A DNA stretch of 64,000 bases from Escherichia coli. Lineage in GTDB: Bacteria; Pseudomonadota; Gammaproteobacteria; Enterobacterales; Enterobacteriaceae. The position numbers are program-made. Location: the NCBI RefSeq assembly GCF_044324875.1, contig NZ_CP172185.1. One strand, given 5' to 3'. Shown here piece by piece: positions 238 to 3,200 of the stretch. The first letter of the stretch is position 1, and each line of letters starts with the position of its first letter.

Positions 238-3200
238 GCAAACACATCAATGATGAACGCCACATAGACGACCCCCTCCCATGTGCTGACGTAAGTAAAA
301 TCAGCCACCCACAACTGGTCAGGACGTTCTGCCACAAACTGACGGTTTACGCGGTCGCCTGCGGCAACGGCTTTCCGGCTGACGGTAGTGCGGACCTTTT
401 TACCCCGGAGAACACCGGCAAGTCCCATAACCGCCATGAGGCGCGCCACTGTACATCTGGCTACCCTGATTCCTTCCCGTAACAACTGACGCCAGACTTT
501 ACGCACACCGTATACCTGATGATTCCCATCGTATACGCGCAGTATCTCTTTCTTCAGCCAGTCATCGCGCTGCGCACGGGCACTGCGTTTATAAGGATGA
601 TGTCGCTGTTGCTGACAGTGGTAATACGTTGACGGGGCAATATGTAGTTCACTGCATACCGGTCCGACCCCGTACAGCTTACGCAGCTTATCCAGCAGTG
701 GCATCACTTTTTCCAGAGGCGGTCGAACTCCGCCTTCGCAAAATAAGCGGAAGCCTGGCGAAGGATATCGTTACTGCGGCGCAGTTCACGATTTTCACGT
801 TCCAGCTCTTTCAGACGCTGACGTTCAGCGGTGGTGAGCCCGCCATCACCGCCTCCGGTATCCCGCTCATGCTGGCGTACCCAGACACGCAGAGTCTCCG
901 GTGTACAGCCAATCTTTGGGGCAATGGAACAAATTGCCGCCCACTGTGAGTCATATTCGCCCTGACTTTCCAGAACCATACGAATCGCCCTCTGACGGAC
1001 TTCGGGGGAAAAACGAGTATTTTTAGTCATTCTGTTTACCTCTTTCTCAGGGAGTTTAGTCTCCAGGATTCCCGGGGCGGTTCACGGGAGCCAGGACCTT
1101 AAAATAACTACTTACAGGCTGTTGTATTCCAGCTGGTAATACGATTTCTGCACTGTCAACAAACGGAATGCCGTCTTTAAAGTCTGCCCTGTCATTAGCC
1201 TCATTGAGAATGAAATCGACTAGAACAGGCTCTTCGTTCACCAGTCCTTGATGGTTAAGAAATTTGACGTAAAGTTTAAGTGTATTGCTGACGGGATAAA
1301 TTTTTCCAAGAGCATTGGTAACAACATGGGCTGCGGTGAGAATCTTTTGCTGCTGACCATTATCGAAACCAAACGCAGTTGCTTCGAGATGGCTACTAAA
1401 ATGAGGATCATTGCTTACATAGATTTTACAAACGTAGTTTTCAAACATTATTTCCTCCTTTTGCCGGTACCTAATCAGTTACACGGCTGCATGTTATAAA
1501 CAACTAAACTCGCTTCCTGATATTTGAGTTTGTATGTTTTGCCAGGCACCAGCTCACCTCTGAAACACGGTTAGTCTCCTCCATGACATGGTTATGCGAT
1601 GGTCAGAAACTGTTATCGACGAAAGGCTGGAATTCCTTTAATGGCATTATCCATTTCAAGTCGTATGTCCTGAACGGGAGCGTATATTTTTATGATTCCA
1701 GATCTTAACCCTGAAACATTCCCCGTATCAAAACTGACCCGTTACAGATAAGTCACCACCGGTGCTGTCGATTAATTTAGTGAATTGCATGTCCTCATCC
1801 CATAAAGGGTAGGGCCTACCCCCGGCATCGAGCAAACCTGACCACCCTGCCCTTATTAAGACCCCACATGCGGCAATGGTGCCCTGTCCACGCCGCCCGC
1901 GAACTTTGAGGAAATGGGGAGAAAATAAAAAGAAAACAAAAAGTTATCGGCTGAAGTACCGGCGCAGATAGGGAATCAGGCGAAGCCTGACAGCACGTTA
2001 GGGCCTGGCAGGGGGCTTGAGGGATGAGGACATGCAATTGTGGTAACCTTCCCGCCACGGGGTCGGTTAATTCGTTATTTAGTGTCATATTAAAGTTATG
2101 TCACTAATCACAGAGTTATGTCACTAATCGCGTTTATCATAATAAAGTTATGTCACTATCCTGACTAAAGTTCTGATTTAAAAACACTTTTATAGGCATC
2201 TTCATTTTTTTGTTACCTGTGCAAACAGGTCAAATTCGTATCCTGCTGCTACAATGCCAACGGCCGCGTTACCAGTTCGCCGGGTAGCATGGCCAGCAAA
2301 GCCAGGCATCGAGCACCCGGGTTTCACTGACGGCCGCTGCATAGACGCCGGTATCCGGGAAGAAATAAACCGGGGTGGCGTTGTTCAGCTGGTCGCCTTC
2401 ATCGGCCAGAGCGCCGATCACCTCATGAGGCTTAAGCAGCATATCCGTTAAATATTCATCCGGGTGGATGGCATTCAGCGATATGGCCATCTCCAGAAAT
2501 TCATCCAGGATATGGCGGGTACGATACCCCCGGAAAACCTCGTATGAAGGCGTGACGCATTCACCATCCAGGGAACAGGCATCGTAACCGGCCAGCTGCT
2601 CTTCGGTGAGTCCGGAGGCATGCTTTGCCACAAGATTCGTAAATTGCTCTTTATCGTCCATCACAATCCTTACGCTGTAGGGGCCTGTTTGTGTTATCAC
2701 TGCTTCCGGTTTTTACTTCGCACAACCCGGCAGGTATCCGGTCGCCCGGGCGTCCTTTGCGGTCTTGTTCGCCCTTCGCCTGAATTACGTCAAATCCCTT
2801 TCACTACCCGGCCGCAGGGTGACACCTCCCCTTTTCTCCGGAAGCGAAAGAGGAAGAACAGTTTAACAGCCCGGATCCTCAATAATTTTCGCGTAACGGA
2901 CTAAATAACCGGTTTATGCAGCTTCTGATAACCACAGACCGCGATAGAATAAAACGTCTGGTGAGGAACCGGAGTGTTATGTAAGCGGGGGGTTTAACTG
3001 GGTATCTGTGTAGTCCTATTTAGCCAGATATCCCGAATAAAAACCTCAACGATTAGGTAAACGAAATGGATGGATTCTGGTCGATGTTCTGTTTGTTTGT
3101 CGTGGTAGTTTCACTGTATAAAGCCCTTTCTGTAGCAGCAGCACGAGCAGACGCAGCAAAATTAAATATGCTTCTCAGAATGAGAAAGTTTAAAAAGTAG

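What the first reader, a model, noticed from the sequence alone, without database searches (positions are those of the whole stretch)
2094..2160. Three helically phased direct repeats AGTTATGTCACTAATC next to the inverted-repeat element
Three near-identical 15-16-bp sites spaced 20 and 32 bp apart suggest cooperative binding of one DNA-binding protein, as with operators, plasmid iterons or integrase arm-type sites. No regulator, integrase or replication gene is adjacent, so the binding partner is unknown.
Basis: seen in the sequence. Interest (0 to 1): 0.45.

Follow-up and report, generated by a model that had tools for sequence, protein, structure and literature searches.

The report
Orphan end of a Tn7-like transposon
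The three repeats are the transposase (TnsB) binding sites of one end of a Tn7-like transposon whose genes and other end have been deleted, so this is an ordinary 158-bp transposon scar, although it sits at a spot in IncHI plasmid DNA that this transposon family has hit repeatedly.

Summary
AGTTATGTCACTAATC occurs exactly at 2094 and 2114 and with 2 mismatches at 2146, against 0.35 matches expected by chance.

The repeats lie in a 158-bp insert (2076-2233) that is absent from the otherwise 99% identical IncHI2 plasmid R478. The insert is bracketed by a duplicated TTCGT, which R478 carries once.

Sequences 80-85% identical to the insert form the terminus just upstream of tnsA-tnsB-tnsC-tniQ in at least five diverged lineages of one Tn7-like transposon. 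Their ends read 5'-TGTCGTGTCATATTAAAGTTATGTCACTA...ACA-3'. The same motif is inverted at the far end, and the target duplications are 5 bp (TTCGT, GGTTT, GCCGG). The 706-aa protein is a full-length homologue of Tn7 TnsB (E 3e-50).

The repeats are therefore the right-end array of 22-bp TnsB sites, the first two overlapping and the third spaced, as in Tn7. In the window the terminal TGTCG is mutated. There are no tns genes and no second end, so the end is very probably immobile.

Verdict: a known kind of feature, of low interest.

One side result is stronger. Four to five independent insertions, from three transposon lineages, fall within 10 bp of this spot in IncHI1 and IncHI2 backbones. All have the same orientation, next to a conserved inverted-repeat element. 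This suggests a plasmid attachment site.

The parts
2076..2233 (+). Orphan right-end (tnsA-proximal) fragment of a Tn7-like transposon. It is an insert relative to the empty site in R478.
   Evidence: Alignment with R478 shows a contiguous GGTCGGTTAAATTCGTATCC there. The fragment is 80-85% identical to the termini upstream of tnsA in pEQ2, pUGA14_1, S43 and HCP8S3_I1.
2071..2075 (.). Left copy of the duplicated target pentamer TTCGT.
   Evidence: R478 has one TTCGT and the window has two, flanking the insert. The same TTCGT duplication flanks the intact elements in pUGA14_1 and pR2-1.
2234..2238 (.). Right copy of the duplicated target pentamer TTCGT.
2076..2084 (+). Degenerate transposon terminus. 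It reads TATTTAGTG where intact relatives read TGTCGTG or TGTCGCG, so the terminal TGT is lost.
2085..2106 (+). Predicted TnsB-binding site R1 (TCATATTAAAGTTATGTCACTA).
   Evidence: Its TAAAGT core sits at the same distance from the terminus as in Tn7R and the sil/pco Tn7-like element. It is conserved across lineages A-D.
2105..2126 (+). Predicted TnsB-binding site R2 (TAATCACAGAGTTATGTCACTA). It overlaps R1 by 2 bp.
2137..2158 (+). Predicted TnsB-binding site R3 (TCATAATAAAGTTATGTCACTA), set apart from R2.
2159..2233 (+). Remainder of the leader that lies between the end array and tnsA in intact elements. Homology to the HCP8S3_I1 element stops at 2229, about 60 bp before where tnsA would start.
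1783..2039 (.). Context: conserved inverted-repeat element of the IncHI backbone. The insertion hot spot lies 36-46 bp to its right. It is a candidate part of the attachment site.
2269..2661 (-). Context: conserved 130-aa IncHI backbone ORF of unknown function. Its stop codon lies about 31 bp to the right of the insertion point.

Best explanation
The three repeats are the array of roughly 22-bp binding sites for the TnsB transposase in the right (tnsA-proximal) end of a Tn7-like transposon. In an intact element, TnsB protomers load onto these sites and onto inverted copies at the far end. They pair the two ends and, with TnsA, cut the element out at the terminal TGT...ACA. Directed by TnsC and TniQ, they then insert it with a 5-bp target duplication. 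The window holds only a 158-bp stump. An element inserted at TTCGT in an IncHI2-type backbone and later lost everything from about 60 bp upstream of tnsA to its far terminus. Its terminal TGTCG was also altered. The stump has no cognate genes or second end in the window, so it is most likely an immobile scar. What is shown: homology to the transposon ends, the architecture, the target duplication and the absence of tns genes. What is inferred: TnsB binding itself, the order of the decay events and the immobility.
For: 1. The segment is an insertion. R478 is 99.3% identical on both sides but lacks 2076-2233 and has a single TTCGT.

2. Related copies (80-85% identity) always form the terminus directly upstream of tnsA (PF08722/PF08721), a 706-aa protein, tnsC (AAA_22/TniB) and tniQ (PF06527). 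The 706-aa protein aligns over residues 8-659 with Tn7 TnsB, PDB 7pik, at E 3.2e-50.

3. Intact elements carry the same motif inverted at the far end (2 copies, 32 bp apart), termini TGT...ACA, and 5-bp duplications: TTCGT in pUGA14_1 and pR2-1, GGTTT in S43, GCCGG in pEQ2.

4. The TAAAGT core lies at nt 14-19 from the terminus, exactly as in Tn7R (verified on plasmid R721 next to tnsA) and in the sil/pco Tn7-like element (PMC4855149).

5. Across four lineages that differ by up to 26%, 80% of site positions are invariant against 38% outside the sites. The 20/32 spacing has no indels.

6. Overlapping sites at one end and spaced sites at the other, plus the 5-bp duplication, are the published hallmarks of Tn7-like ends (PMC11406308; PMC8649781).

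7. A metagenomic relative is nearly identical to the window through all three sites and has the canonical TGTCG terminus followed by tnsA.
Against: No experiment shows TnsB of this family binding these sites; the assignment rests on homology and architecture. The window copy lacks the defining terminal TGT and has no second end and no tns genes. It therefore meets the definition only as a remnant. How the deletion could end exactly at the far junction, leaving both TTCGT copies, is unexplained. The left flank has also lost one A relative to R478.
Confidence: 0.93

Rival explanations
1. The stump is not inert. As a block of TnsB-binding sites at a preferred insertion site, it confers Tn7-type target immunity: incoming cognate transposons are blocked because TnsB bound to the stump dislodges TnsC. 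This would extend the main explanation rather than replace it.
For: Tn7 and relatives strongly inhibit a second insertion near an existing end (PMC11406308). All three site cores are intact in the window. The stump sits exactly at a site hit repeatedly by this family. A second stump of the same family sits at another recurrent site in Lelliottia.
Against: No test was possible. Immunity has not been shown for this family. The persistence of intact sites may simply reflect a recent deletion. Cognate transposons are rare: 4 of 5,426 complete E. coli genomes.
Confidence: 0.2
2. The segment is a non-autonomous miniature element (a mini-Tn7 or MITE) that can still be mobilised in trans by a resident cognate transposon.
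For: It is short and bracketed by a 5-bp direct duplication.
Against: There is no inverted copy of the motif inside the insert or anywhere in the 64-kb window at up to 1 mismatch of the 12-mer, apart from one isolated chance-level hit at 53286. The terminus is TATTTAG instead of TGTCG. The right-hand 75 bp is homologous to the tnsA leader of lineage C, not to a left end. The identical segment is found only at this one locus, in 3 E. coli chromosomes plus one copy cut by an insertion sequence.
Confidence: 0.03
3. The repeats are iterons, a partition centromere or operators belonging to the IncHI backbone, bound by a plasmid Rep, Par or repressor protein.
For: Direct repeats with helical phasing resemble such sites. 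The surrounding DNA is plasmid backbone.
Against: The repeats are absent from R478. A search of the plasmid collection with the segment found only 26 partial matches at about 80% identity, against about 1,400 records that carry the flanking backbone. They are not found next to rep or par genes in any relative examined. Wherever related repeats occur, they are the terminus of a tnsABC-tniQ element in unrelated contexts: ycgH, mdtQ, a bgl promoter and an IS110-type gene.
Confidence: 0.02
4. The repeats are arm-type sites of a tyrosine or serine integrase (an attL/attR remnant of an integrative element).
For: Multiple direct repeats near a junction of foreign DNA.
Against: No integrase is associated with any relative examined. 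The 5-bp duplication, the TGT...ACA termini and the inverted copies at the far end are transposon features, not att-site features.
Confidence: 0.01

Closest known systems
Tn7 right end (Tn7R) with its 22-bp TnsB-binding sites
   Same: The array lies directly upstream of tnsA. It begins 7-8 nt inside a TGT terminus. The TAAAGT core is at nt 14-19. The first sites overlap, while the far end has spaced, inverted sites. The target duplication is 5 bp. The cognate protein is a full-length TnsB homologue (PMC11406308).
   Different: There are three sites rather than four. Apart from TAAAGT the site sequence differs (GTTATGTCACTA). The partner selector is a short TniQ (about 331 aa), not TnsD plus TnsE. 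The leader before tnsA is about 218 bp rather than about 135 bp. In the window the terminus is mutated and the rest of the element is missing.
The sil/pco-carrying Tn7-like transposon of IncHI2 plasmids (R478, pMG101 and others)
   Same: It is the nearest relative among plasmid-borne elements (TnsB 42% identical). Its published 28-bp ends, TGTCCGAGGACAATAAAGTTGTACACAA, share TGTC and A.A.TAAAGTT.T in the same register. It also resides on IncHI2 plasmids.
   Different: It has a different insertion locus and different duplications (GTCCT/GGTCC). It has tnsABCD, and its site sequence differs.
The fos-operon Tn7-like transposon of the equine IncHI1 plasmids pEQ1/pEQ2, also found in pUGA14_1, E. 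coli S43 and Enterobacter sp. MGH 24 (lineage A here)
   Same: It is the same transposon family. The three sites are at identical positions, the terminal architecture is the same, and the IncHI insertion zone and orientation are the same.
   Different: It is 80% identical to the window stump over the end. It is intact (about 24-50 kb with cargo), whereas the window holds 158 bp of a different lineage, closest to HCP8S3_I1 (85%) and to a metagenomic element.

Membership tests
Tn7-like transposon end (TnsB-binding array) | An array of about 22-bp repeats in direct orientation close to the terminus, with the same motif inverted at the other end. | tested here: met
   Three copies at 2085-2158. 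In the intact relative pUGA14_1 there are 3 copies at the tnsA end and 2 inverted copies at the far end, against 0.41 expected by chance. The window itself has only the one end.
Tn7-like transposon end (TnsB-binding array) | Terminal 5'-TGT...ACA-3'. | tested here: not met
   Relatives have TGTCGTG or TGTCGCG at one end and CTCCACA at the other. The window reads TATTTAGTG at the terminus and ...GGTCAAA at the other junction. This copy is therefore a decayed remnant, not a functional end.
Tn7-like transposon end (TnsB-binding array) | A 5-bp target-site duplication. | tested here: met
   TTCGT is at 2071-2075 and 2234-2238, and R478 has a single copy. Relatives show TTCGT, GGTTT and GCCGG.
Tn7-like transposon end (TnsB-binding array) | An adjacent tnsA-tnsB-tnsC-tniQ/tnsD operon reading inward from the right end. 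| tested here: not met
   The operon is present in all intact relatives. It is absent from the whole 64-kb window (tblastn, best E 0.099).
Tn7-like transposon end (TnsB-binding array) | Asymmetric ends: overlapping sites at one end, spaced sites at the other. | tested here: met
   Right-end site spacing is 20 bp (22-bp sites overlapping by 2) and then 32 bp. The left-end spacing is 32 bp. The criterion is taken from PMC11406308.
Tn7-like transposon end (TnsB-binding array) | Physical binding of the cognate TnsB to the repeats. | not testable with these tools
   This needs EMSA or footprinting. Indirect support: the sites are 80% invariant against 38% for the surrounding DNA across four lineages.
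Plasmid iterons or partition sites | Part of the conserved replicon backbone and linked to rep or par genes. | tested here: not met
   Absent from R478. A search with the segment found only 26 partial matches against about 1,400 plasmid records carrying the flanking backbone. There are no rep or par genes within 5 kb.

The most novel reading that the evidence does not exclude
The roughly 40-bp interval between the conserved inverted-repeat element (1783-2039) and the 3' end of the conserved 130-aa ORF of IncHI plasmids may be a dedicated plasmid-borne attachment site for this tnsE-less Tn7-like family. The window stump would mark one such homing event and might now protect the site by target immunity. 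Five insertions fall within 10 bp, all with the tnsA end facing the inverted repeat. They are lineage A into IncHI2 (TSD TTCGT), lineage A into IncHI1 at TTCGT, lineage A into IncHI1 at exactly +10 bp (TSD GCCGG), lineage B into IncHI2, and the window's lineage D. The backbones exceed 200 kb and are only 82% identical between IncHI1 and IncHI2.
Probability: 0.5. Interest if true: 0.45.

Novelty: new member of a known kind. Interest (0 to 1): 0.22.

Why it matters
For the finding as posed, the result closes the question. The unknown binding partner is a transposase, and the feature is a decayed transposon end, useful mainly for correct annotation of IncHI-derived islands.

The side observation carries more weight. 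A catalogue of 6,549 Tn7-like elements reported that 20% sit in plasmids, some without tnsE, and suggested as-yet-unknown plasmid target selectors (PMC8649781). A family that repeatedly homes to one 10-bp zone of IncHI1 and IncHI2 backbones would be a concrete, testable example. It would also explain how cargo such as the fos operon reaches epidemic IncHI plasmids.

Tried and rejected
1. Rfam scan of 1400-3200 on both strands at E up to 1: no match. Neither the repeats nor the inverted-repeat element is a curated RNA family.

2. Search for tnsA, tnsB, tnsC or tniQ remnants anywhere in the window by tblastn: nothing below E 0.099.

3. Search for a second, inverted end in the window: only chance-level hits. 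This rejects the mini-element reading.

4. A shared target motif. I noticed GAGGA-N7-TTGTGA in both the IncHI flank and the Enterobacter/Lelliottia chromosomal flank. Best gapless matches between flanks of different sites were not better than shuffles (p 0.37-0.99), and the distances to the insertion point differ. Rejected.

5. Pfam and NCBIfam on the neighbouring ORFs (2269-2661, 1056-1448, 3733-4074, 4598-5053): no families. They offer no alternative DNA-binding partner.

6. Promoter and terminator scan of 1700-2750: no plus-strand promoter in the stump.

7. Literature searches for a name or description of this transposon (the fos/IncHI1 element) found only descriptions of the different sil/pco Tn7-like element. 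One likely source (PMC8092906) is not held.

8. The mechanism of the deletion. I compared both junctions with the empty site and with lineages A and C and could not derive a convincing microhomology or cleavage model.

9. The left end of lineage C (HCP8S3_I1) was not found within 45 kb. That copy appears rearranged by insertion sequences.

Full report
**Observation**

The 16-mer AGTTATGTCACTAATC is present exactly at 2094-2109 and 2114-2129, and with two mismatches at 2146-2161. Allowing three mismatches, the 64-kb window holds only one more match, a weak one. The chance expectation is 0.35, and no shuffle out of 100 reached four matches. The repeat finder extends the unit to 22 nt: 2085-2106, 2105-2126 and 2137-2158, with start-to-start spacing of 20 and 32 bp. 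It also confirms the neighbouring inverted repeat, with 19-nt arms at 1783-1801 and 2021-2039 that are 100% complementary.

**Context**

The surrounding DNA is IncHI2 plasmid backbone. Window 1450-3100 matches R478 and hundreds of IncHI2 plasmids at 99.3%, but over only 91% of its length. Full-length 100% matches occur only in three E. coli chromosomes.

Aligning the window with R478 shows why. R478 reads GGTCGGTTAAATTCGTATCC without interruption, whereas the window carries an extra segment between two copies of TTCGT. The repeats therefore lie inside a 158-bp insertion (2076-2233) bracketed by a 5-bp direct duplication of target DNA (2071-2075 and 2234-2238).

**What the insert is**

Searching with the insert alone found copies 79-85% identical in 26 plasmids and a few E. 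coli chromosomes. In every case inspected the match is the DNA immediately upstream of four genes in the order tnsA, a 2,121-nt gene, tnsC and tniQ. The cases are:
- pEQ2 (IncHI1);
- pUGA14_1, pSA18578 and pR2-1 (IncHI2);
- RCS78_p (IncHI1-type backbone);
- E. coli S43, inside mdtQ;
- E. coli HCP8S3_I1, inside ycgH.

Pfam identifies TnsA (PF08722, PF08721), TnsC (AAA_22/TniB) and TniQ (PF06527). The 706-aa product of the second gene has no Pfam hit, but it aligns over residues 8-659 with Tn7 TnsB (PDB 7pik) at E 3.2e-50.

The elements end in 5'-TGTCGTGTCATATTAAAGTTATGTCACTA at the tnsA side and in ...TAGTGACATAACTCTAATATGACTCCACA-3' at the far side. The far end carries two inverted copies of the motif, 32 bp apart. 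The elements are flanked by 5-bp duplications: TTCGT in pUGA14_1 and pR2-1, GGTTT in S43, GCCGG in pEQ2.

These are the published hallmarks of Tn7-like transposons: arrays of 22-bp TnsB sites, overlapping at one end and spaced at the other; the right end defined as the one upstream of the tns genes; and a 5-bp duplication (PMC11406308; PMC8649781).

**Register with Tn7**

I checked my recollection of the Tn7 right end against plasmid R721. It matches 100% and abuts tnsA. Counting from the terminal T, the TAAAGT core of the first site occupies nt 14-19 in three elements: Tn7, the sil/pco Tn7-like element whose ends are published (PMC4855149), and the family studied here.

**Selection on the sites**

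The first 1.6 kb of the elements defines several lineages:
- lineage A: pUGA14_1, pEQ2, RCS78_p, Enterobacter sp. MGH 24 and S43, 99-100% identical to each other;
- lineage B: pSA18578, 93.5% identical to A;
- lineage C: HCP8S3_I1, 74% identical to A;
- lineage D: the window stump, 85% identical to C and 80% to A.

Across A-D, 80% of positions inside the three sites are invariant against 38% outside them. There is no indel between the sites, so the 20/32 spacing is fixed. A metagenomic element is nearly identical to the window through all three sites, carries the canonical TGTCG terminus and continues into tnsA.

**State of the window copy**

Homology to lineage C runs to 2229, about 60 bp short of where tnsA would begin, and then the IncHI backbone resumes.
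- The terminus reads TATTTAGTG instead of TGTCGTG, so the essential terminal TGT is gone.
- No tns gene remnants exist anywhere in the window (best tblastn E 0.099).
- No inverted copy of the motif exists in the window.
- Only 4 of 5,426 complete E. coli genomes carry a cognate tnsB. None of them is one of the three genomes that hold the identical locus.
- In strain TUM9803 the same stump is further cut by ISEc8.

The stump is thus an orphan, almost certainly immobile right end. I could not reconstruct how the deletion reached exactly the far junction while keeping both TTCGT copies.

**Mechanism**

By homology with Tn7, TnsB protomers bind the three sites and their inverted partners, pair the ends, and cleave and join at the termini with TnsA. 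TnsC and TniQ choose the target.

The following are shown here: the end homology, the architecture, the target duplications, the TnsB homology and the pattern of site conservation. The following are inferred: binding itself, the inactivity of the stump, and any residual role. The most plausible residual role is target immunity, because blocks of TnsB sites in a target inhibit nearby insertion in Tn7 (PMC11406308). I rate this at about 0.2.

**Rivals**

Iterons, partition sites or operators are excluded. The segment is absent from R478, and a search of the plasmid collection found only 26 partial matches against about 1,400 records carrying the flanking backbone. Related repeats always travel with tnsABC-tniQ into unrelated loci. 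Integrase arm sites are excluded by the absence of any integrase and by the transposon-type junctions. A mobilisable mini-element is excluded by the missing second end and the mutated terminus.

**Side result: a recurrent insertion zone**

Insertions of this family cluster tightly in IncHI backbones:
- lineage A in IncHI2 at TTCGT;
- lineage A in the IncHI1-type RCS78_p at the same nucleotide;
- lineage A in pEQ-type IncHI1 plasmids exactly 10 bp further on, with TSD GCCGG;
- lineage B in IncHI2 at TTCGT;
- lineage D in the window.

All have the tnsA end towards the inverted-repeat element, 36-46 bp from its right arm and about 31 bp from the stop codon of a conserved 130-aa ORF. The IncHI1 and IncHI2 flanks are only 82% identical, so spread of one insertion by homologous recombination is unlikely.

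The inverted-repeat element is single-copy in 1,455 plasmids. It always lies just 3' of that ORF in IncHI1, IncHI2 and an IncHI1B-type plasmid. Its arms and right half are highly conserved. It folds much better than shuffled sequence on both strands, with z-scores of -4.6 and -5.6. Too little variation exists for covariation to be informative, and it has no Rfam match.

The same lineage A also inserts elsewhere: in mdtQ, and upstream of a 6-phospho-beta-glucosidase gene in Enterobacter sp. MGH 24. A two-site stump sits at that same spot in Lelliottia and in a metagenome. Flanks of the different sites share no significant similarity. A plasmid attachment site is therefore plausible but unproven, and the recognition determinant is unknown.

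**Verdict**

This is a real feature of a well-known kind: the TnsB-binding array of a Tn7-like right end, here as a decayed orphan. Interest in the finding itself is low. The recurrent IncHI insertion site is of moderate interest and can be tested.

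Noticed in passing
window 1783-2039 (arms 1783-1801 and 2021-2039): Conserved structured element of IncHI backbones. It is single-copy in 1,455 plasmids and always lies immediately 3' of the conserved 130-aa ORF in IncHI1 (R27), IncHI2 and an IncHI1B-type plasmid. Its arms and right half are near-invariant while the left half varies. It folds with z -4.6 (+ strand) and -5.6 (- strand). There is no Rfam match, and too little variation for covariation. Function unknown.
   Followed up: partly
window 2071-2085 and the equivalent positions in L003, L006, L011, L012, L013: Hot spot for this Tn7-like family in IncHI plasmids. Five insertions from three lineages fall within 10 bp, all in one orientation, and one is displaced by exactly 10 bp (TSD GCCGG instead of TTCGT).
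   Followed up: partly
L016 3976-4100 and L017 2880-3010 (also L025): A second recurrent site. An intact lineage-A element in Enterobacter sp. MGH 24, and a stump lacking the middle site in Lelliottia nimipressuralis and in a metagenome, sit at the same position upstream of a 6-phospho-beta-glucosidase gene. They lie beside a tandem palindrome TATATGACTAGTCAT...ATGACTAGTCATATAG that looks like an operator.
   Followed up: partly
L014 2990-3010 (E. coli TUM9803): The same stump is interrupted by an ISEc8 (IS66 family) insertion just upstream of the third site. The stump therefore predates that insertion and is shared by several chromosomal IncHI2-like islands.
   Followed up: partly
window 222-1030, 1056-1448, 5144-5716, 6056-7269: Decay caused by insertion sequences around the locus. 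An IS3-family copy (orfA 6056-6382, orfB 6379-7269) and a truncated second copy (222-1030, minus strand) flank the region. The 130-aa ORF at 1056-1448 corresponds to the trypsin-like serine protease gene that is 657 nt in R478. The VWA-domain gene (1,242 nt in R478) is represented by only a 190-aa ORF.
   Followed up: no
window 2661-3733 compared with L001 10050-15236: R478 carries about 4 kb more between the 130-aa ORF and the 113-aa ORF, including a 987-nt ORF and a 2,040-nt ATP-dependent helicase gene. The window lacks this stretch. This was seen from the annotation tables only.
   Followed up: no
window 1450-3100 and beyond: IncHI2-type backbone with the tellurite-resistance (ter) cluster appears here in a chromosomal context. 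Identical copies of 1450-3100 occur only in three E. coli chromosomes, all from poultry isolates where a host is given. One of them (CP182371) carries different IS insertions from window position about 4600 onward, so the window comes from a related but different genome.
   Followed up: partly
window 2215-2230: Perfect small hairpin ACCTGT-GCAA-ACAGGT in the former tnsA leader, preceded by a T7 run. It is conserved in lineage C (AACCTGTGCAAACAGGAC) but not in lineages A and B. It was not called as a terminator by the scan.
   Followed up: no
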